Positions 142 to 64,000 of a DNA stretch of 64,000 nucleotides are shown piece by piece. Under the pieces are notes generated by a model. It was given only the letters and a program-made list of their open reading frames with translations, did no database searches and had not been told where the DNA came from. A program made the translations under genes and the position numbers. Origin of the DNA: an uncultured delta proteobacterium (lineage in GTDB: Bacteria > Myxococcota > Myxococcia > Myxococcales > Myxococcaceae); NCBI GenBank assembly GCA_963771175.1, contig CAVYSY010000008.1:1-64000 (forward strand). The letters run 5' to 3'. How positions within the stretch are numbered: the stretch's first letter is position 1; every line of letters begins with the position of its first letter.

Positions 142-3100
142 ATGAAGATCAATCCAACGCCGGAAGCGTTCGTCCGGCAGGTACGTGAGACGAACGAGAG
201 CGACTATGGTCCCAAGGCCCGTGCGATGGCGCGGACGCTCCTGTCTGCAGGCCTTCCGCACCCTTGGTTGTATGCCTTCGAACTTACGCAGAACGCGCGA
301 GACGCCGGCGCTCGTTGGGTGAAGTGGACCGTGACGGACACCGACGATGTCGTGCTCCAGCACGATGGGCCTGAGCCGCTCGAGGAGCGCCACGTGCGCG
401 GCCTCGCTTCCGTCGGAGCGTCGACCAAGGGCCTTGCCGCGGTGGGGTTCATGGGGGTCGGGTTCAAGGCGGCGTTCTCCCGCTTCAAGACGGTTGGCGT
501 CAGCGGGTTCGGCTGGAAGTTTCGCTTCGACGTGGGGACCGAGCATGGCGACCTTGAGCGGGGACGGCCCGACTTGTTCGACACGTTGCTTCCGTCATGG
601 GACCCGGATCTCTCCGATCCCGAACCCGGCTTCACCACTCGGTTCGATCTCCGCGGTCCACGCGGGCTGGCCAGAGCCCCGTTCGAGGATCTCGCGCACC
701 TGTGCTCCGTGAACGATCCGACGCCGCTTGCCGTCCTGGCGCTACGAGGACTCGAGCGCGTATCTGTCGGAGATCGGACCTGGGATTTGCGCGTAACGGA
801 CGGTATCGCGGAGGTCCACGACTCCGCCCGCGACGCTCCCTGGAGGTGGGTGGTCTTCCGGGCGAGCTACCGTCCGGACGACGCCGCCATGCGGAGGTTT
901 CTCGAGGTCCGGAAGGCTCTTCGCGAACAGGTGGACAGTCACGGGCGAGCGTCCCGCTCGGGAAGTTGTTGCGCTCCTGCCGATTGATGGCTCGGGTCGC
1001 CCCGTCCCTCCCGCCCGTGGTCACGTCTACGCGACGCTGCCCACGCAGGTGGAACTCCCGTTTCGCTTCCACCTCCAGGCGGACTGGCTGGTGAACCTGG
1101 ACCGCCAGAACCTCCGGGATGTCGTCGGCGACCCGTGGCATGAGGCCATCCTGCAGCGGGTACCGGAGCTCGTTTCGACAGCTGCTCCTCTGGATTGCCG
1201 AGCGGCCCGAGGTGCGACGCTCCGGGTGGGAGGCCCTGTTGGTTCCGCGCCCGGATGAGGGAACGCTTGGCGCCGCGTTTGAGAACCTCCGCTCCGCCAT
1301 TGGCGCTGCGATAGGCGACCTTGCCGTTGTTCCGGTTCACGGCGCACCGGAACAGGAACTGCGCAGGCCCCGGATGTCTGGCGCCTTCCGTCCGAGTTTC
1401 GCGCGAAGTTCGGCCGGCGAGCGGGCTGGCGCCCCGACCTGCTCTTTGTGCGCGACGTCATGGACGAGGCGAAGCTGGGAGACTCCGCCACTCAGTTCTT
1501 TCTGTGGCTCGGCTACGGTCCCGAGATCGTTCCCCCCATCCACGCGTGGCCGGCGGCACTCCCCCGCTGGTGGAGCGGAGTCCCAGAGGACGAACGCCAT
1601 GAAGCTCTGTTCGCGCTGTGGAACTCGGTGGCCGCTCCGCCGTGGCAAGAGTCTCCGGTCGTTCCCACCGAGGAAGGATCTGGGTTGGGGCGGGGCGGAT
1701 CCGCTGGCTGAACGAGAAGCCACCGTCGCCGGGGGAGAAGTCCGGCGGAGGTCATCGCGGACGCGTTAGCCGACTTGCTCCCCACGCCCGGGGAGCGCGT
1801 GGCTCCCAGTCTCCGGCAGGTAGTTCAGAAGGCACTTGGCCCAGGAATTACTTGGTTCCGGCGGATGAGGCAGGACGTCGAGCTCAAGGCCGCCGTGCGG
1901 ACGGCACTCGCAGACAAGGCCCGGCCGGGAGACGTTCCCATTCGTCCAGTTGCTCGACTTGGCGCTAAGCCGCGGCCACCGTGCGGACCTTGTGCCATGG
2001 CTTCTCACGGAGGAAGGACCGCGGGAGCCTGAAAATGCGCTGCTCGCGGACCCTTACGTCGCGGGCGGCATGCATCGTCGCACCCTCTTCCGGGAACCTT
2101 CCTGCCATCCACCGGGGCTACCTCGACGTTGCGTCGGTCGAGTCGCTCGTGGCGTTCTTTCGCAAACTCACGGCTCGTGGCGACGTCGCGCTGCTTCGTC
2201 AGGGGACGCCAGTGGGTCGCAGCTCGGCGTCGCGCGGGAGCTCGGCATGAAGAGGAGCTCGTCGAGCCCGCCAATCGCAGAGGGCTACTCGATTGTCGAC
2301 ATGGTCTTTCCCGTTCGCTGCGTCGGTCCCGCCGGAGGCGCTCGCGGATTGGCTGTCGAGGGGGTATCGCACGCTGGGCGGGCAGGGCCGCATCTTTGCC
2401 GAGAGCGCCTACTACGTCGAGTTGGTCACACGCGGCGCACGCAAGGCCCACTGGGTCCTCTCGTTGGAGGAGGTGGCGTGGGTACCTTGTACCGACGGCA
2501 AATGTCGAAAGCCGGCCGACGTAAGGTTGCAGGCCGATCCGGACTACGAACACGTGTACCATCGCTGCCTTGGACACGGAATTCGGCAAGTGGTTACAGC
2601 AGAAGGGCGTGGAGTTCGGCGCCAACGTTTCAATGGCGCCTGCCCTGCGCCGGCTCGCATCCCGCGGCGCTGGTGCTCTGGAGGACAAGGTCTTGGCGCG
2701 ACTCCTCCACGGCGCCCGCACGTCCGTGGACGCTGGAGAAGCGACCGACTCGGCGCTGAACGAGGCCTTGTCAGTCATCCGGGTCCGGGAGCACCCGCTG
2801 GATCGGATCGTCCGACGTACCGGAGTGGGGCCCGGCCTAAGGAGCGATCTCGACGGCTGGGTGCTCGACCTCACGGCATTCGATCCGTATCTGCAGTACG
2901 AGCTCCAGCAGGTCCGGCCATCGATGCCCGCGACGACCACCGGGTCCCAGGCGCTCGCGTTTCCTGTGCAGCATCTGGGAGGAGCGGCCGAAGCGCGTCG
3001 ACGAGCTAGGCGCCACCTTGCGGCTGCGTACCGGTACGTGGCGGACGATCTCGATCGAGGATTGCTGCGGAGAGCGTGGAACGCGGCGCTCCGAGGCGCG

Positions 3101-58718: not shown

Positions 58719-59031
58719 CTAGTGCACCCAATTGGAGCGGGAGCCCTGACCACCCGGGACGAAAACGAGCCGCGCGGGCCGCTCGTCTGAAATTCCTTCC
58801 GAGGCCATGGCCGCGCGGGCAGTCAGAATTTCAGACATGCGGACCAGCGGGAGCGTGTACCAGATGCGGGACGAGCTCCTCCTCCGCCACGTGGCCGAGC
58901 ACATCTCCGTGTCGCTCATCCACCACTGGCAGCAGGTGGACGCCGTAACGGTGCATCACCTCCAGCGCGCGCAGCACGGTGTCGCGCGGATAGAGGATGA
59001 TGTCAGGCATTGCAACGACTTGGGTCTCTAC
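58719..59031 (-). CDS. Small CBS-domain protein (frameshift near 58870)
   Basis: PRDTVLRALEVMHRYGVHLLPVVDE..G.VLGHV. Confidence 0.7.
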
Positions 59032-59182
59032 CGTGCGGCGCGTCAAGGATACCTCCAGGAAGGAAGCCCGTCTGGCCCCTGCTCGGGCCCTAGCAATCCC
59101 CCTGCCGTCCCCTCGAGGGTCCCCCACGCAACTTTTGGAAGGGATGGAGGATAATGGAGGGAGCATTGCCCGGAGCCCCCCC

Positions 59183-61207
59183 ATGTCCGTGAAGTCCACC
59201 ACCTCGTCCACCTCGTCCATCACCCGACGCCAGCCGGATGCGCTCGCCCCGCAGAAGCCCGCGACGTCCTCCAATCCACTGGAGAAGGTGGGCCAGGCGC
59301 TGCAGAACGCGGCCAAGGGCGTCGCCCAGCACGTCAACCGCGCGGTGGACGTCTTCGAGGCGAAGCTGCCCTCGCTGCCGCGGCCCGCGGGAAAGAAGCC
59401 CTGGGAGGGCATCACCCTCACCGGCAACCCGCTCAAGATTCCGCTCGACGCGCTCAAGAAGGTGGACCTGGGCGACGTCCGCAAGGTGCTCGAGCGCGTC
59501 TTCCCGCCGAAGATTCACGACGAGCAGGGCAAGCAGCTCGTCACCCAGACGCAGGACTTCCGCGACACGCTGGGCAAGGTGCGCTCGCTGTCGGCGGAGC
59601 TGGAGATGCTGCCCGCCTCCCACCCGCGCCGCGCCGAGGTGAAGAAGGCGCTGGAGGCGGCCGAGGGCAAGCTGACGGCGGACTACGGCTACACGCGCAC
59701 CACCGCCCCCAAGCCGGGCGCGATGTGGATAGACCCGCAGTTCGCCGCCAAGGAGCTGCCGGGCGGGAAGCTGAACGCGAGCCACTTCCCCACGGGCACG
59801 CCGGTGACGAAGCCGCCGGCGCCCATGGACTTCCTCTTCGGCAACGGGCCGCGCGAGCTGACGCTGGGCGAGGGGCCCTCGGCCCGCACGGTGCACACCG
59901 CCGAGGAGTACAAGGCGGCGGTGGCGGCCCGGCGCGCCGAGCTGGGCATGCCGGTGAAGGACGGTGAGCCCCAGGGCGTTCACCTGAGCCTCCAGGGTGG
60001 CGGCGGCAAGGGCAAGCGCTACGCCGCCATGGTCGCGGAGATGTATGACCTGGGCGTGGTGCCCACGAGCCTGAGCGGCACCTCGGCGGGCTCCATCGCC
60101 GCGGCGTTCGCGGCCACGGGCGCGGGCCCCGCGGAGCTCCAGGCGCTGGCGAAGGACCCCCGGTTGAGCAACCTCTACGACTGGGACCTGGACATGAAGG
60201 ACGGAGGCATCCTCAACGGCCAGCAGGCCTTCGACCTCGTCGACCAGGAGCTGCGGCGGATGACGGGGATTACGGACCGTCCGGTGACCTTCGCGGACCT
60301 GAAGGTGCCGCTGCAGCTCATCGCCGCCAAGAGCTACGACAGCGCGGCGGGTCCGGACGGGGGGACCTCGGCCAAGGACCGCATCTTCGTCTTCAGCCAG
60401 GAGACGACGCCGGATACGCCGGTGGCGCTGGCGGTGCGCGCCTCCATGGCGATTCCGGGCGTCTTCGAGCCGGTGCAGGTGGTGGACCCGGCCACGGGCC
60501 GCCGGATGCACCTGGTGGACGGGGGCGCGCTGGACAACCTGCCCATGGGCTACAACAAGAACGACCTGCCCCAGATTGGCGCGTCGCTCTACTCCCGCGC
60601 CTCGGGCCACCCGGCGGACCACCGCGACACGACGAAGCCGCTGCCCTCGGGAAACCTGGACTCGACCAACGTCCTCTGGAACGCCCTCAACGGCTACACG
60701 CTGATGAAGGACTCGGGGTCGGACTACAACGACTACATCGACCGGACGCAGCCCAAGGCCAACCAGTACATGCTGTCGCTGCCCACCTGGGACCTGACGG
60801 ACCCGACCAAGAGCAACAGCACGCTGGGCTTCGGCTACGACGCGAAGGTGGACCCCGCGCTGGACGGGCAGTCGCGCCAGGTGACGCGCGACTTCCTGCG
60901 CAACTTCCTCGACGACCTGCGCGTGCCGGGCTCGCGGGGCACGAACTACACGGCGCAGGTGCCCCAGAACATCCACTTCGACCTGCCGGTGGTGGCCAAG
61001 GGCCAGCAGTACCAGGTGAGCTACGCGGGCGGTGACAACCTCATCGTCACCTCCAAGGAAGGCGGCCATCGCAGCGTGCTGCCGGTGGGCAAGCAGCGCA
61101 TCGAGGCGATGTACATGGACAACCAGACCTTCGGAGACCTGCCGGCGCAACTGGCCTACACCATCACGAACCCGCGGAGCGTGAAGCCGAGCTGGCTGCC
61201 CTTCTGA
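59183..61207 (+). CDS. Patatin-like phospholipase with long N-terminal extension
   Basis: LQGGGGKG, GTSAG, RASMAIPGVF, LVDGG. Confidence 0.9.
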   Translation: MSVKSTTSSTSSITRRQPDALAPQKPATSSNPLEKVGQALQNAAKGVAQHVNRAVDVFEAKLPSLPRPAGKKPWEGITLTGNPLKIPLDALKKVDLGDVRKVLERVFPPKIHDEQGKQLVTQTQDFRDTLGKVRSLSAELEMLPASHPRRAEVKKALEAAEGKLTADYGYTRTTAPKPGAMWIDPQFAAKELPGGKLNASHFPTGTPVTKPPAPMDFLFGNGPRELTLGEGPSARTVHTAEEYKAAVAARRAELGMPVKDGEPQGVHLSLQGGGGKGKRYAAMVAEMYDLGVVPTSLSGTSAGSIAAAFAATGAGPAELQALAKDPRLSNLYDWDLDMKDGGILNGQQAFDLVDQELRRMTGITDRPVTFADLKVPLQLIAAKSYDSAAGPDGGTSAKDRIFVFSQETTPDTPVALAVRASMAIPGVFEPVQVVDPATGRRMHLVDGGALDNLPMGYNKNDLPQIGASLYSRASGHPADHRDTTKPLPSGNLDSTNVLWNALNGYTLMKDSGSDYNDYIDRTQPKANQYMLSLPTWDLTDPTKSNSTLGFGYDAKVDPALDGQSRQVTRDFLRNFLDDLRVPGSRGTNYTAQVPQNIHFDLPVVAKGQQYQVSYAGGDNLIVTSKEGGHRSVLPVGKQRIEAMYMDNQTFGDLPAQLAYTITNPRSVKPSWLPF

Positions 61208-61214
61208 AAAGGCA

Positions 61215-61249
61215 GAGGGCCGCCCCGGTGCATCCGGGACGGCCCCCTC
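61215..61249. terminator. Hairpin between convergent patatin and Hint genes
   Basis: GAGGGCCGCCCCGG-TGCAT-CCGGGACGGCCCCCTC. Confidence 0.5.
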
Positions 61250-61279
61250 GAGGCCCCTCCGTGACTCGGGGCGGGCGCG

Positions 61280-63297
61280 CTAGCGCCGGGCGCTCTTCTG
61301 CCGGGCCTGGTGCCGGCGGAAGTCCTCATGCCAGGCGCCGTTGAGCTTCGTCAGCACCTCGCGCGTGTCCCGCACCTGCTGCTTCTCCAGCGTGAGCTGC
61401 GTCTGGCTGTCGCCCACCAGGAAGCCATTGGCATACAGCGTCCGCGCCTCGGGCCCGGCCTTGGCCAGCTCCTCCGGCGTGCCCAGCGCGAAGTTGAACA
61501 CCTCATCGTTGTAGGGCACGCGCTCCACGCCCACCAGCTTCGTCGCCCCGGCGCGCGTCAGCAGGACCTCGCCCACCTTCAGCTCGCCGGCCTGCACCAC
61601 GCCGCGCTTCGCCGTCACCATCGGGTGGGTGCCCGTCACCATCACCTCGGCGCCCTTCTCATCCCGCAGCTTCACCACCGGCTTGCTCTCGCCGCCGCGC
61701 GACACCGTCGTCACCGTGAGCGCCAGGCCGTTGCCATTGGCCAGCAGCTTGTCGCCCACCTTCACCTGCTCCACCGGCACCGACTGGCCATCCGCCTTCA
61801 CCACCTGCGTCCCCTTCGCCAGACAGGAGTTGCGCCAGTCGAGGGTCTGGACGGACGTGGTGCGCGTGTTGATGCCCGACTGGGTTGCCTGGGGCGAGGT
61901 CGCGCCGAGCACGATGCAAGTGGACTTCACCGTGGAGCGCACGACGAGCTTCGTGTTCTGGAGGGTGCTCAGGCAGTCCTTGCCGAAGTCCACCAGCCCG
62001 TCGAAGGGGAACTCCATGATGTTGTTGTCGTAGAGGTCCCGGGCGTACGGCTTGAGCGGCAGGGCGCTGTGCGCCACGACCGTGCCCGGCACCCGGTGCC
62101 ACCGGCACACTTGCCACCCGTCTCCAGGAGGATGAGGGCCACGTCGCTGTCCTGGGCGTCCACCCGGCACCAGGTCTTCAGCGAGAGCCGATGCTTGCCG
62201 CGCATGGCCAGGTAGAGGTGGCTCTGGTCATAGACACCGCTCGCGGGCTCCCAGTAGTCCCCCCGCTTGGGGACCCAGGAGCCGGAGGGCGGCCGGGACA
62301 ATTCGGCATCCACCGCGCCAATGCCGGTGAAGGGCTTGGCGAACGGGCGGAAGTCCCCCGTGACGGGGTCCTTGCTGCCCGAGGCGTAATCACAATCCAT
62401 GGCGCCCAGGAGGCTGCCGCGCTCCAGGCAGGTGCGGATGGGATTGTCCGTGAGGTGCTTGCCGATCTGCTCACGGGGGTGGGCGAAGAGGATGGTGTTG
62501 GTGAAGGGCGTGGGCGAGGGCTGCGCCCCCAACGAGCCGAGCGAGGACTCGGCCACGGTGTAGGAGATGTGCGACTCGCCCGTGGCCTCGTTGAAGGCCA
62601 TGGACACCGAGTCCACGAAGAAGACCTCATCGGAGTTGGCCTGCATGCCGAGGTCGAGCGTCGGCGTCTCCAGCACCTTGCCCGCGTACTCCTCGTAGGA
62701 CTCGGTCCCCAGCACGCGGAAGCGCTGGCGCGTCGCATCGGTGGCGAAGGCGGTGACGTCGACGTAGCCGTAGTCCGAGCCGTTGAAGCAGGTGACGAGG
62801 CCCGAGGCCTGGAACTTCACCTCGGTGGAGTCGGGGCTGACCGCGTCCGCGAGCGGCAACAGGTGGCCGCACCACGGATTCTCCCGGGTCTCCGTCGAGG
62901 TGAGCGTGTCCTTACGGGTCTGCACGCCCGGGACTCCGGCCTTCTTGTCCTTGCGCAGCTTGTCGAGGCGGCGGAAGAGCTGCGGCGAGTTCTCCGGGGT
63001 GCTACCCGAGGCCTGGAGCCGGTTCTTCACGAAGCGGAACTGCGCCTCGTCGGAGAGGTCCACGGGCATCTCCCGGCTCACCCGGGGCTTGTTGGAGTCC
63101 CGCGCCTGGGCACTGACCTGCTGATCCCACTGCGAATAGAGCTGGGCCATGTGGAGCGAGTCCTCGGCCAGGATCTCCTTGTCCACCTGCTGCGGCGCCT
63201 TCTGCTGGGCACAGCCCGCACCGAGCACCGTCAGGAATGTGAGAGCCGGGACGAGACGCTTGAGCATCCGGGGGGAGCCATTCAACGACAGCTTCAT
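61280..63297 (-). CDS. Lipoprotein with C-terminal Hint (intein/Hedgehog-like) domain and conserved tail (frameshift near 62100)
   Basis: Lipobox GAGC; NS|CLAKGTQVVKADG...VEQVKVGD, block B TGTHP, VFNF, YANGFLVGD, then a 42-aa tail. Confidence 0.88.
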
Positions 63298-63730
63298 GGG
63301 GTTCACCTCAGGGGATGACAACGACAGACAATTCCTCTCGAACGACTGGGAGGGAGACCTACAGGGTGAGCAGATGTGGAGTACAGGTAGGAGAGGGGGT
63401 CAATCGCTCCTCTTGCAGGTTCGCTCAGCAACGTGGGGATGCCTCGCCGGATGATGAAGACAGGCGGAGAAAAGCTTTTTCCTGCCTGTCCAAACACAGA
63501 CACAGTCTGGGGACCCCCCGCGAACAGCGAACAATCCCGTGTGCCTCCCGGGGAGGGCACCCGGCCGGCCGAGCGGATGCCCCTGCACGCCCTCCCGCCC
63601 TGCGCGTGAGTGTTCTGCCTCGGCGCACCCTCGGAGAGCGGCCCCTGGAAAAGCGGAGGGGCCGCCCCGGTCACCCGAGACGGCCCCTCGAGACGCTCGG
63701 CGATTCAGGGCAGGCGAGCCCGGCTCGCGC

Positions 63731-64000
63731 CTACTTCCTCGCCTGGCGCCGCTGGGACTGGCGGTAGTCCTCGTGCCAGGCGCCGTGGAGCTTCGCCAGC
63801 ACCTCGCGAGCGTCCACCTTCCGCGCCTTCTCCAGCGCCGTCTGCGCCTGGCCGTCTCCCACCAGGAAGCCGTCGGCGAACATCGTCCGCGCCTCGGGCC
63901 CCGCCTTGGCCAGCTCCTCCGGCGTACCCAGCAGGAAGTTGTAGACGGGCCCCTGGTAGGGGATGCGCTCCACCGCCACCAGCTTCGTCGCCCCGGTGCG
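63731..64000 (-). CDS. 3' end of a second, paralogous Hint-domain gene (runs off the window)
   Basis: VYNFLLGTPEELAKAGPEARTMFADGFLVGDGQAQ...LHGAWHEDY. Confidence 0.88.
   Translation of the reverse strand, partial: RTGATKLVAVERIPYQGPVYNFLLGTPEELAKAGPEARTMFADGFLVGDGQAQTALEKARKVDAREVLAKLHGAWHEDYRQSQRRQARK

What the first reader, a model, noticed from the sequence alone, without database searches (positions are those of the whole stretch)
61280..64000. Tandem Hint-domain proteins ending in Gly-Asp with a conserved WHED tail: a possible Hedgehog-like autoprocessing/ligation system
Seen: two adjacent paralogs end in a Hint domain. The complete copy is a lipoprotein with Cys1 (61823-61825) and block B TxxH intact. 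In both copies the intein His-Asn is replaced by Gly-Asp, followed by an about 40-aa helical tail conserved in both (REVL.KL.GAWHED[FY]R). The residue after Asp is Ser in one copy and Gly in the other, so canonical splicing cannot be the shared function. Established: Hedgehog Hog domains lack the terminal Asn and use a post-Hint helical region to deliver an external nucleophile (sterol); some myxobacteria make sterols; a few inteins end in Asp. Inference: the N-terminal Cys-rich, lipid-anchored domain is activated as a thioester and ligated to a small molecule, lipid or protein selected by the tail.
Basis: partly seen in the sequence, partly recalled or inferred. Interest (0 to 1): 0.78.

Follow-up and report, generated by a model that had tools for sequence, protein, structure and literature searches.

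The report
Secreted bacterial proteins with self-cleaving Hint tail
Two neighbouring genes encode members of a widespread but never characterised family of secreted bacterial proteins that end in an intein/Hedgehog-like self-processing domain plus a short conserved tail; one of the two copies is broken by a frameshift in this assembly.

Summary
The sequence features are real. Two tandem paralogues on the minus strand end in a Hint domain (Cys1, T-x-x-H) that stops in Gly-Asp and is followed by a 40-42 aa helical tail with W-H-E-D-[FY]. The "complete" copy, however, is split into two frames at 62089-62091. The intact copy (657 aa) runs off the window.

The family is large: 313 clusters at E<=1e-30, spread over several phyla. 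Its architecture is fixed: signal peptide or lipobox, helical plus beta-sandwich cargo, Hint, tail. In 131 diverse members Cys1, His, Gly-Asp, a Gln at +4 and the Asp of W-x-x-D-Y are 99-100% conserved. The +1 residue varies, so splicing is excluded.

The fold matches Hedgehog Hog, BIL domains and inteins equally well (Z about 12-13). [quoted passage not shown]

Most likely the protein cleaves itself at the X|Cys bond through a thioester. Transfer of the cargo to an external nucleophile remains possible but untested. Sterol is not supported: the family occurs in genomes where no squalene epoxidase was found. The verdict is a new member of a known, uncharacterised kind, of moderate interest.

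The parts
61280..62170 (-). Copy 1, downstream frame (296-aa ORF): end of the N-domain, Hint domain and tail, including the stop codon
   Evidence: ORF list. Sub-threshold Pfam Hint-clan hits: Hom_end_hint 30.1 bits against cut-off 32.1, PT-HINT 22.3.
61969..63321 (-). Copy 1, upstream frame (450-aa ORF): signal peptide, LGAGC lipobox (Cys codon 63211-63213) and N-domain. It reads out of frame after about 62090.
   Evidence: 43% identical to the N-part of copy 2. No Pfam family.
62089..62091 (-). Frame break in copy 1: the window has two letters (62089 and 62091) that are absent from contigs of runs X1 and X3
   Evidence: table 4. The frame offset was read. Orthologues P0040 and P0043 are open across this point.
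61409..61825 (-). Copy 1 Hint domain, from Cys1 (61823-61825) to the terminal Gly-Asp (Asp codon 61409-61411). It includes the T-x-x-H block (VTGTHP).
   Evidence: In the model of paralogue P0001 the matching residues 479-617 align to Hog, BIL and intein structures at Z 12-13.
61283..61408 (-). Copy 1 tail, 42 aa: S-Q-T-Q (Gln at +4 from Asp), predicted helices, GAWHEDF (WHED 61322-61333), basic end
   Evidence: In the P0001 model the tail forms helices 618-630, 635-638 and 641-656 with block-mean pLDDT 75-97.
63731..64000 (-). Copy 2, last 89 codons plus stop. The whole gene is G000:C8:63731-65704, 657 aa, intact (= P0001). Asp codon 63854-63856; 40-aa tail 63734-63853.
61200..61279 (-). GC-rich 15-bp hairpin followed by UUUU just after the copy 1 stop. 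A similar element follows the copy 2 stop (63650-63730).
   Evidence: Alignment with 77% mean column identity. Folds of -47.2 and -53.5 kcal/mol, z -2.4 and -3.6. The strict terminator scan found none.

Best explanation
The window holds two tandem paralogues of a widespread family of exported bacterial proteins with one fixed architecture. One paralogue is frame-broken in this assembly. The other is intact but runs off the window.

The architecture is a signal peptide or lipobox, a cargo of about 450 aa (N-terminal helices, an FnIII/Ig-like beta-sandwich and a second beta-rich part, with conserved Cys pairs), a 139-aa Hint domain, and a tail of about 40 aa.

Proposed mechanism:
1. After export and folding, the Hint domain carries out the first Hint step. 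Cys1, helped by the T-x-x-H block, attacks the preceding peptide bond and turns it into a thioester (inferred from the invariant residues).
2. The thioester is then resolved, which separates the cargo from Hint+tail (inferred). It may be resolved by water or by another nucleophile; this is open.
3. Splicing does not occur, because there is no conserved +1 nucleophile (shown).

The Gly-Asp ending, the invariant Gln four residues later and the W-x-x-D-Y motif are family-specific parts of the processing module. The tail is probably docked on the Hint domain rather than being a free peptide or a separate domain.
For: Hint fold:
- The AlphaFold model of P0001 has pLDDT 89 and pTM 0.87.
- Residues 479-617/621 align to 1at0 (Z 12.9, rmsd 1.7, 129 residues), 6tmm (Z 12.8), 2lwy (Z 12.7) and many inteins. 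D617 falls on the last intein residue, for example 6riz 0..125 against model 478..617.
- A profile search of PDB sequences gives the bacterial intein-like domain 2lwy as the best hit, E 1.4e-10.

Catalytic set, of 131 diverse representatives: Cys1 130; Thr 126 plus Ser 5; His 131; Gly-Asp 130; Gln at +4 131; block-F Asn 129.

No splicing: the +1 residue is N/G/S/A/L and others.

Fixed architecture: every full Hint+tail hit examined also matches the family's N-domain HMM (four loci with longer open frames, E<=1e-65).

Export: most of the 110 full-length representatives begin with a signal-like or lipobox-like N-terminus. This was read by eye; my regex was imperfect.

Tail docked on Hint:
- Block-mean pLDDT of the tail is 75-97.
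- Mean-field coupling analysis on 241 sequences (Meff 164) ranks M554-A620, Y588-Y647 and Q556-L624 at positions 8, 14 and 17 of all pairs. The top pair, M480-V615, joins the N- and C-terminal strands.
- All three tail-Hint scores (1.98, 1.68, 1.64) exceed the maximum (1.24) of 8 of 8 shuffles in which the tail block was permuted among sequences.

Established knowledge: Hint-superfamily members use subsets of the splicing steps, and BIL domains that lack a +1 nucleophile give mostly cleaved products (PMC7664689, passages).
Against: - No experiment exists for any member. None was found in the searches.
- The penultimate His and the block-F Asp of class-1 inteins are replaced by Gly and Asn, so the rates and even the competence of the reaction are unknown.
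- A purely hydrolytic removal of a soluble Hint+tail from a cargo has no obvious purpose, which argues that something more (ligation, or a pro-domain role) is involved.
- I had no model coordinates, so the position of the tail rests on pLDDT and on couplings from a shallow alignment. The shuffle control does not preserve phylogeny.
- The cargo fold gave no functional lead: best Z was 6.4, to an FnIII domain.
Confidence: 0.68

Rival explanations
1. Hedgehog/BUBL-like ligation. The thioester on the cargo's new C-terminus is resolved not by water but by a defined nucleophile positioned by the tail and the Gly-Asp/Gln site. Candidates are a lipid amine such as phosphatidylethanolamine, a peptidoglycan or polysaccharide group, or a lysine of another protein. 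The cargo would end up covalently anchored or cross-linked.
For: - The layout is the same as Hog: exported cargo, Hint, short helical extension.
- A whole autoprocessing domain is kept on one fixed cargo across phyla, which is hard to explain by mere removal.
- Invariant residues lie beyond the Hint core: Gln +4 in 131 of 131 and the tail Asp in 130 of 131.
- Among the tied best structural matches is Tetrahymena BIL2. Its authors report that it conjugates a ubiquitin-like domain to lysines of other proteins (PMC8616854, section 2.4 passages), so Hint-driven ligation to non-sterol nucleophiles has precedent.
Against: - No acceptor is identified.
- No conserved partner gene: neighbours are shared only within a genus.
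- The tail (about 40 aa) is, from recall, shorter than the Hog sterol-recognition region, and no similarity to it was tested.
- Sterol specifically is unlikely.
- Many BIL domains simply cleave (PMC7664689).
Confidence: 0.25
2. Double cleavage. Besides the N-terminal cleavage, the terminal Asp cyclises, as the terminal Asn/Asp does in inteins, and cuts off the tail of about 40 aa. The tail is then a released peptide or a removable lock.
For: - D617 sits exactly where inteins have their cyclising Asn.
- Gly-Asp is kept in 130 of 131 members.
- The +1 residue is mostly small: N, G, S or A in 102 of 131.
- From recall, not read here: inteins ending in Asp can still cleave (Amitai et al. 2004), and B-type BILs cleave their C-terminus by an atypical route (the latter also stated in PMC7765530, passages).
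Against: - The penultimate His that assists cyclisation is Gly.
- The tail co-varies with Hint positions and is modelled with high confidence, which suggests a stable docked element.
- A peptide signal would not be expected to keep the same W-x-x-D-Y motif across several phyla.
Confidence: 0.2
3. Pretoxin-Hint / polymorphic-toxin module or mobile intein. The Hint domain releases a C-terminal toxin, or it is a selfish element inside a host gene.
For: Weak Pfam PT-HINT hits: 44 of 80 members at E<=0.01. The second-best hit of the PDB sequence search is the Hint region of a 1368-aa chain, 8w20.
Against: - Only about 40 aa follow the Hint domain (median), with one conserved motif rather than variable toxin tips.
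- No conserved downstream immunity-like gene.
- No endonuclease insert, no conserved host protein and no +1 nucleophile.
- All Pfam scores for P0001 are below their cut-offs.
Confidence: 0.03
4. Catalytically dead Hint fold kept as a structural or binding domain.
For: The class-1 intein residues at block F (Asp) and the penultimate His are replaced. All Hint-clan Pfam models score below threshold.
Against: Cys1, Thr and His of the N-S acyl-shift machinery are 99-100% conserved among representatives that share under 50% identity. That is not expected of a dead domain.
Confidence: 0.05

Closest known systems
Bacterial C-terminal Hint-like proteins of Burglin 2008 (BMC Genomics 9:127, PMC2362128; Additional file 16: STIAU_1829, MXAN_6253, Reinekea MED297_11140, plu1731, and Serratia and Yersinia proteins). 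The paper says Dassa and Pietrokovski had detected the group earlier.
   Same: This is the same family.
- The printed alignment shows N-S-C-[ML]-A-x-G-T, H-P-V, A-G/N-G-x-L-V-G-D, the Gln at +4, L-P-x-x-W-[HR]-x-D-[FY], and the N-domain motifs (DL.D..Q..F, C..R....CDY).
- P0211 (Reinekea blandensis, 634 aa) matches P0001 at 34% identity over residues 479-652, E 2e-28.
- The end of one myxobacterial hit (L020) reads the same as the STIAU_1829 row.
   Different: Nothing structural differs. The window adds a tandem pair, one copy of which is frame-broken. The passages I read mark motifs A and B and a motif-F-like patch; in them I saw no discussion of the Gly-Asp ending, the +4 Gln, the tail motif or a function.
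Hedgehog C-terminal autoprocessing (Hog) domain, PDB 1at0
   Same: The order of parts is the same: exported cargo, Hint, helical extension. Fold match Z 12.9, rmsd 1.7 A over 129 residues. Cys1 and T-x-x-H are present. There is no terminal Asn and no splicing.
   Different: - The fold score is tied with BILs and inteins.
- Pfam PF01079 scores 20.3 bits against a 29.7 cut-off.
- The tail is about 40 aa, with no similarity to the sterol-recognition region tested.
- The sterol-activating Asp of Hog was not located here.
- Carriers include genomes where no squalene epoxidase was found and enterobacteria.
Bacterial intein-like (BIL) domains, A- and B-type (Amitai et al. 2003, not read; structure 2lwy)
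   Same: Best PDB sequence match, E 1.4e-10. Z 12.7, 25% identity. Found in exported, non-conserved bacterial proteins, with no obligatory +1 nucleophile and cleavage rather than splicing (PMC7664689 and PMC7765530, passages).
   Different: - A-type domains end in His-Asn, whereas this family ends in Gly-Asp.
- Pfam PT-HINT and Hint_2 score below their cut-offs.
- As I recall, BILs sit in variable positions of many different proteins. Here one cargo and one tail always go together.
BIL2 of the Tetrahymena BUBL1 polyubiquitin-like locus (6tmm/6y75)
   Same: Top Foldseek match, E 4e-8, and Z 12.8. It is an example of a Hint domain that passes its N-terminal cargo to an external amine (PMC8616854, passages).
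   Different: It is eukaryotic, flanked by ubiquitin-like domains and ends in Asn (the solved construct is C1A-N143A). Sequence identity is 14-16%.
C-type BIL domains of predatory bacteria (Dori-Bachash et al. 2009)
   Same: Possibly the same or a neighbouring group. The title concerns predatory bacteria. A later paper says C-type BILs come with a 'putative predator-specific domain 1' (PMC9185962, passage).
   Different: Could not be compared, because the paper is not held. This family is not predator-specific.

Membership tests
HINT (Hedgehog/intein) superfamily | Hint fold | tested here: met
   Model residues 479-617/621 align to 1at0, 6tmm, 2lwy and more than 20 inteins at Z 10-12.9, rmsd 1.6-2.4 A, 123-135 residues. 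Foldseek E down to 4e-8.
HINT (Hedgehog/intein) superfamily | N-terminal nucleophile (Cys/Ser) and block B T-x-x-H | tested here: met
   Cys1 in 130 of 131; Thr 126 plus Ser 5; His in 131 of 131 representatives. Both window copies have them.
Burglin-2008 bacterial C-terminal Hint-like group | Shared N-terminal region with two conserved Cys, a C-terminal Hint-like domain, and a signal peptide in some members | tested here: met
   The printed alignment carries the same motifs. C277 and C289 (CL.R....DCDY) are at least 90% conserved. The Reinekea member matches at E 2e-28.
Canonical (class 1) inteins | C-terminal His-Asn and a Cys/Ser/Thr at +1 | tested here: not met
   Gly-Asp in 130 of 131. The +1 residue is N 34, G 29, S 20, A 19, L 11, Q 5, E 2 and others.
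Canonical (class 1) inteins | Insertion inside a conserved host protein, whose two halves are rejoined | tested here: not met
   Only a tail of about 40 aa follows the domain. The N-part has no Pfam or NCBIfam family.
Hedgehog Hog domain | Match to Pfam PF01079 above the gathering score | tested here: not met
   20.3 bits against 29.7 for P0001. 36 of 80 members reach E<=0.01, fewer than for Vint (62), Hint_2 (45) or PT-HINT (44).
Hedgehog Hog domain | Sterol-recognition region and sterol as nucleophile | tested here: inconclusive
   A helical tail lies in the equivalent place, but no comparison with the SRR was possible. The PF08491 search found nothing in G000, G132, G136 or G140, which carry the family. 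The model also hits E. coli controls, so it is not specific. Enterobacterial members exist.
Hedgehog Hog domain | General-base Asp/His that activates the sterol hydroxyl | not tested
   No residue-level superposition was available: the model coordinates are not exposed.
BIL A-type / PT-HINT (PF07591) and B-type (PF13403) | Match above the Pfam gathering score; A-type His-Asn end | tested here: not met
   PT-HINT 22.4 bits against 27.7; Hint_2 16.9 against 28.4 for P0001. The domain ends in Gly-Asp.
Vint | VWA domain upstream; PF14623 above the gathering score | tested here: not met
   14.2 bits against 27 for copy 1. No VWA hit. Structure 8r2c gives Z 8.2, below the other Hint matches.
C-type BIL (Dori-Bachash 2009) | Motifs as defined in that paper; association with the PPS-1 domain | not testable with these tools
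   The paper is not held. Only a one-sentence description in PMC9185962 was seen.

The most novel reading that the evidence does not exclude
The Hint+tail module is a bacterial counterpart of Hedgehog/BUBL processing. It arms the C-terminus of an exported, Ig-like cargo as a thioester. Guided by the docked tail and the invariant Asp/Gln site, it passes the cargo to a non-water acceptor, such as an envelope lipid amine, peptidoglycan, or a lysine on another cell's surface protein. The result would be ATP-independent covalent anchoring or covalent adhesion outside the cytoplasm, in several bacterial phyla.
Probability: 0.22. Interest if true: 0.85.

Novelty: new member of a known kind. Interest (0 to 1): 0.45.

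Why it matters
Hint domains are known for three chemistries: splicing, cholesterol transfer in Hedgehog, and lysine conjugation in ciliate BUBL proteins. This family is a fourth, large and phylogenetically broad group. It has 313 clusters at E<=1e-30, found in Myxococcota, Gammaproteobacteria, Acidobacteriota, Bacteroidota and others. It has its own invariant ending (Gly-Asp, Gln +4) and a tail that always travels with one cargo.

The family has been in the literature since 2005-2008 with no function. The conserved residues listed here give a direct mutational map, and the prediction (a thioester at X|Cys in an exported protein) is cheap to test. If the thioester is passed to an acceptor, it would be the first Hedgehog-like ligation system in bacteria. 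If it is only hydrolysed, it is a self-removing C-terminal pro-domain. For this particular window the news is modest: two more members, one of them broken.

Tried and rejected
- Complex prediction of the Hint domain (479-617) with the tail (618-657). The queue was full, and one search reported the tool unavailable. Nothing was folded, so there is no result either way.
- The search for related loci with the diverse alignment A2 failed because no stretch was conserved enough. It was repeated with A1.
- A Pfam scan of all of A2 exceeded the size limit. It was repeated on 80 members.
- A second homologue search with A2 returned the same 51 proteins as the first and added nothing.
- ESM Atlas gave no usable hit for the N-domain.
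- Fold searches of the N-domain alone found only generic tandem beta-sandwich look-alikes: Foldseek TM 0.20 or less; VIA-align best Z 6.4, none at 8 or above. This does not show that the fold is new.
- No conserved neighbour gene was found across genera. The patatin-like gene next door is not shared.
- The strict promoter/terminator scan found nothing.
- Earlier findings of this scan: none, by place or by sequence.
- No RNA holder was listed for the stretch.
- Literature searches that gave nothing relevant: locus tags, 'Hint domain-containing protein', Vint structure, and a poorly chosen 'C-type' search.
- Dori-Bachash 2009 is not held.
- The polymorphic-toxin, mobile-intein and dead-domain readings were considered and rejected (see rivals).
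- An aerolysin-like pore-former idea for the long strands of the cargo found no support in the fold searches.
Full report
WHAT IS IN THE WINDOW

On the minus strand there are three relevant open frames:
- 63321..61969, 450 aa.
- 62170..61280, 296 aa, in another frame that overlaps the first by about 200 bases.
- 64000..63731, open at the window's edge.

The first frame begins with a signal-like sequence ending LGAGC (Cys codon 63211-63213). It continues as a Cys-containing domain with no Pfam match.

The second frame holds the Hint domain..NSC|LAKGT.. with the Cys codon at 61823-61825, then VTGTHP, then NGFLVGD with the Asp codon at 61409-61411. A 42-aa tail with GAWHEDF follows.

The third frame is the end of a paralogue: ..GFLVGD|GQ.., then a 40-aa tail with GAWHEDY.

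THE 'COMPLETE' COPY IS BROKEN

- The window's genome (G000, 58 contigs, 81.7% complete) has the paralogue as one 657-aa open frame at C8:63731-65704 (kept as P0001).
- Orthologues of copy 1 (P0040, P0043) are single frames of 672 and 665 aa.
- Contigs of two public runs were laid on 61700-62500. X1 has 12 differences in 801 bases and X3 has 36. Both lack one letter at 62089 and one at 62091 relative to the window. Two extra letters are exactly the offset between the two frames (read).
- Copy 1 is therefore either a strain-specific pseudogene or an assembly error. The data cannot tell which, because neither run is identical to the window.
- The genome has a third, more distant paralogue on contig 28. 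It is 616 aa, has a signal peptide and the same ..NGFLVGD|G.. ending, and its tail reads ..W.QDY...
- There is also a shorter Hint protein of another type on contig 52, ending GFLVGSS with no such tail.

THE FAMILY

- A word-indexed search with P0001 gave 51 proteins, all from Archangium, Vitiosangium and other Myxococcota. Sources call them only 'Hint domain-containing protein', 'intein' or 'hypothetical'.
- A profile of 28 of them (A1) was run against 1.84 billion representatives. It found 8156 proteins at E<=0.001, 1377 at E<=1e-10 and 313 at E<=1e-30.
- Of the 150 best, 143 matched my Hint+tail HMM and 131 matched nearly its whole length.
- Among those 131, which share under 50% identity, the conservation is: Cys1 130; block B Thr 126 (Ser 5); His 131; a G-x-E motif with Glu 129; block-F Asn 129; Gly-Asp 130; a Gln four residues after the Asp 131; the tail Trp 119; the tail Asp 130; Tyr/Phe 122.
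- The residue after the Asp is N 34, G 29, S 20, A 19, L 11, Q 5, E 2 and others. The tail is 25-78 aa long, mostly 35-48.
- Named members come from Acanthopleuribacter and Blastocatellia (Acidobacteriota); Zooshikella, Spartinivicinus and Reinekea (Gammaproteobacteria); Candidatus Entotheonella; Ignavibacteriales; a Clostridia MAG; Roseivirgaceae and Flammeovirga (Bacteroidota); a Nitrospinota MAG; and many genera of Myxococcota.
- In a sample of 151 genomes of the window's order, 27 had some match. Seventeen of these had a strong one (E<=1e-30), all in the window's own family-level group, with up to six matches per genome.

ALREADY IN PRINT

[quoted passage not shown] His Additional file 16, which I read in full, aligns proteins from Stigmatella, Myxococcus, Reinekea, Photorhabdus, Serratia and Yersinia. 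The alignment shows the same Cys1 block, H-P..G-x-L-V-G-D, Gln at +4 and L-P-x-x-W-[HR]-x-D-[FY]. It also shows the N-domain motifs seen here.

The Reinekea protein in today's databases (P0211, 634 aa) aligns to P0001 residues 479-652 at 34% identity, E 2e-28, right to the W-H-Q-D-Y end.

In the passages I read, no function and no comment on the Gly-Asp ending or the tail is given. I did not read Additional file 17.

Searches of the held library for the locus tags, for 'Hint domain-containing protein' and for BIL terms found no experimental work on the family.

Dori-Bachash et al. 2009 on 'C-type BIL' domains of predatory bacteria is not held. A later paper says only that C-type BILs come with a 'putative predator-specific domain 1' (PMC9185962, passage). 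Whether that is this family remains open.

STRUCTURE

AlphaFold2 with a 118-sequence alignment (A2) gave a confident model of P0001: pLDDT 89, pTM 0.87. Its parts are:
- Helices at 42-128.
- A beta-rich cargo at 138-475.
- A Hint domain at 479-617.
- Tail helices at 618-630, 635-638 and 641-656, with block-mean pLDDT 75-97.

For the Hint domain, the exhaustive structural search put Hedgehog Hog (1at0: Z 12.9, rmsd 1.7 A, 129 residues), Tetrahymena BIL2 (6tmm: 12.8), a Clostridium BIL (2lwy: 12.7) and some twenty inteins (10-12.5) in one tied group. Vint (8r2c) came lower at 8.2.
- Foldseek ranked BIL2 first, E 4e-8.
- The PDB sequence search ranked 2lwy first, E 1.4e-10.
- D617 falls on the last residue of the aligned inteins.
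- On sequence, no Hint-clan Pfam model reaches its cut-off for P0001. Among 80 members the weak hits spread over Vint (62), Hint_2 (45), PT-HINT (44), Hom_end_hint (36), Hog Hint (36) and Intein_splicing (8). NCBIfam gave only a sub-threshold intein N-terminal hit.
- So this is a Hint domain of its own subtype, no closer to Hog than to BILs or inteins.

For the cargo, modelled alone (pLDDT 88, pTM 0.89), the searches found only an FnIII/Ig-like sandwich for residues 139-251 (Z 6.4) and generic tandem beta-sandwich look-alikes. Nothing reached Z 8. No enzyme-like fold was recognised. This does not prove that the fold is new.

ARCHITECTURE AND CONTEXT

- Every full Hint+tail protein I checked also matches an HMM of the family's N-domain. 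This includes four loci with longer open frames (E<=1e-65).
- The apparent N-domain-only entries are truncated gene calls.
- The top-150 list was ranked with a full-length profile, so Hint+tail modules on other cargos could exist lower down. I did not see any.
- Neighbouring genes are shared only within a genus. The patatin-like phospholipase gene next to copy 1 is not conserved beside homologues.
- Each of the two copies is followed by a similar 15-bp GC hairpin and UUUU.

THE TAIL

As a substitute I ran a mean-field coupling analysis on 241 Hint+tail sequences (Meff 164).
- The top pair, M480-V615, links the first and last strands, as expected for a Hint fold.
- Three tail-to-Hint pairs rank 8, 14 and 17: M554-A620, Y588-Y647 and Q556-L624.
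- Their scores (1.98, 1.68, 1.64) exceed the best tail-to-Hint score (at most 1.24) in each of 8 shuffles that permute the tail block among sequences.
- The control does not keep phylogeny and the alignment is shallow, so this is only suggestive.

Together with the high pLDDT, this argues that the tail is docked on the Hint domain. Tyr647 of the W-x-x-D-Y motif would lie next to the block-F Asn589 neighbourhood, and the invariant Gln621 would sit one helical turn from the Asp that occupies the intein C-terminal position beside Cys1. The Gln621 placement is an inference from chain connectivity.

MECHANISM

- Shown: the residues for the N-S acyl shift are invariant. The +1 nucleophile needed for splicing is absent. 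The protein is built for export. The module always accompanies one cargo.
- Inferred: Cys1 forms a thioester with the cargo's last residue, and the cargo is then separated from Hint+tail. This is what Hog and most BIL domains do (PMC7664689, passages).
- Open: whether water or another nucleophile resolves the thioester, and whether the terminal Asp also cuts off the tail.
- Keeping 180 residues of processing machinery only to remove them is odd. That oddity, plus the invariant residues beyond the Hint core, keeps a Hedgehog/BUBL-like transfer alive. BIL2 is reported to pass a ubiquitin-like domain to lysines (PMC8616854, passages). I put transfer at about one in four.
- Sterol as the acceptor is not supported. 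Members exist in enterobacteria. Genomes G132, G136 and G140, with 2-5 matches each, gave no squalene-epoxidase match, and G102 and G108 gave only weak partial ones. Genera with strong matches but no family member also exist. That Pfam model also hits E. coli, so the test is rough.

VERDICT

The Hedgehog-like reading is reasonable as an analogy but is not specific, and the family is a previously noticed, still uncharacterised Hint subtype. The result is a new member of a known kind. Interest is moderate, and would rise sharply if ligation were shown.

Noticed in passing
window 58997-61207 (+): A 736-aa ORF with a patatin-like phospholipase domain (PF01734, E 4.4e-23), convergent with copy 1. 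It is not conserved next to homologues in other genera.
   Followed up: partly
window 61200-61279 and 63650-63730 (-): Both paralogues are followed by a similar GC-rich 15-bp hairpin plus a short U run, so the duplication included the 3' flank and each copy may end its own transcript. The strict terminator scan did not list them.
   Followed up: partly
G000:C52:41237-41506 (L004:1426-2565, -): A 379-aa protein with a different Hint subtype (ends GFLVGSS, no W-x-x-D-Y tail). Similar open frames of about 310-510 aa (mostly 360-390) occur, often several per genome and clustered, in other myxobacterial genomes.
   Followed up: no
G102:C1:8932614-8933156: Another family copy in a related complete genome has a TAG stop inside the match, so broken copies of this multi-copy family may be common.
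   Followed up: no
proteins P0149, P0143, P0164, P0183, P0180: Some family members, including one from a Clostridia MAG, start directly at the conserved helical region without an evident signal peptide. This could reflect gene-call starts or a different export route.
   Followed up: no
Burglin Additional file 16, plu1731 row: The Photorhabdus member keeps Gly-Asp and the +4 Gln but ends 14 residues after the Asp, without the W-x-x-D-Y motif. It is a natural tail-truncated variant that could be informative.
   Followed up: no
P0001 residues 277-291 (N-domain); copy 1 about 62390-62440: The motif C-L-x-R-x(4-8)-D-C-D-Y, with two Cys at least 90% conserved across the family, is the best-kept feature of the cargo. 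It matches the 'two conserved cysteines' noted by Burglin.
   Followed up: partly
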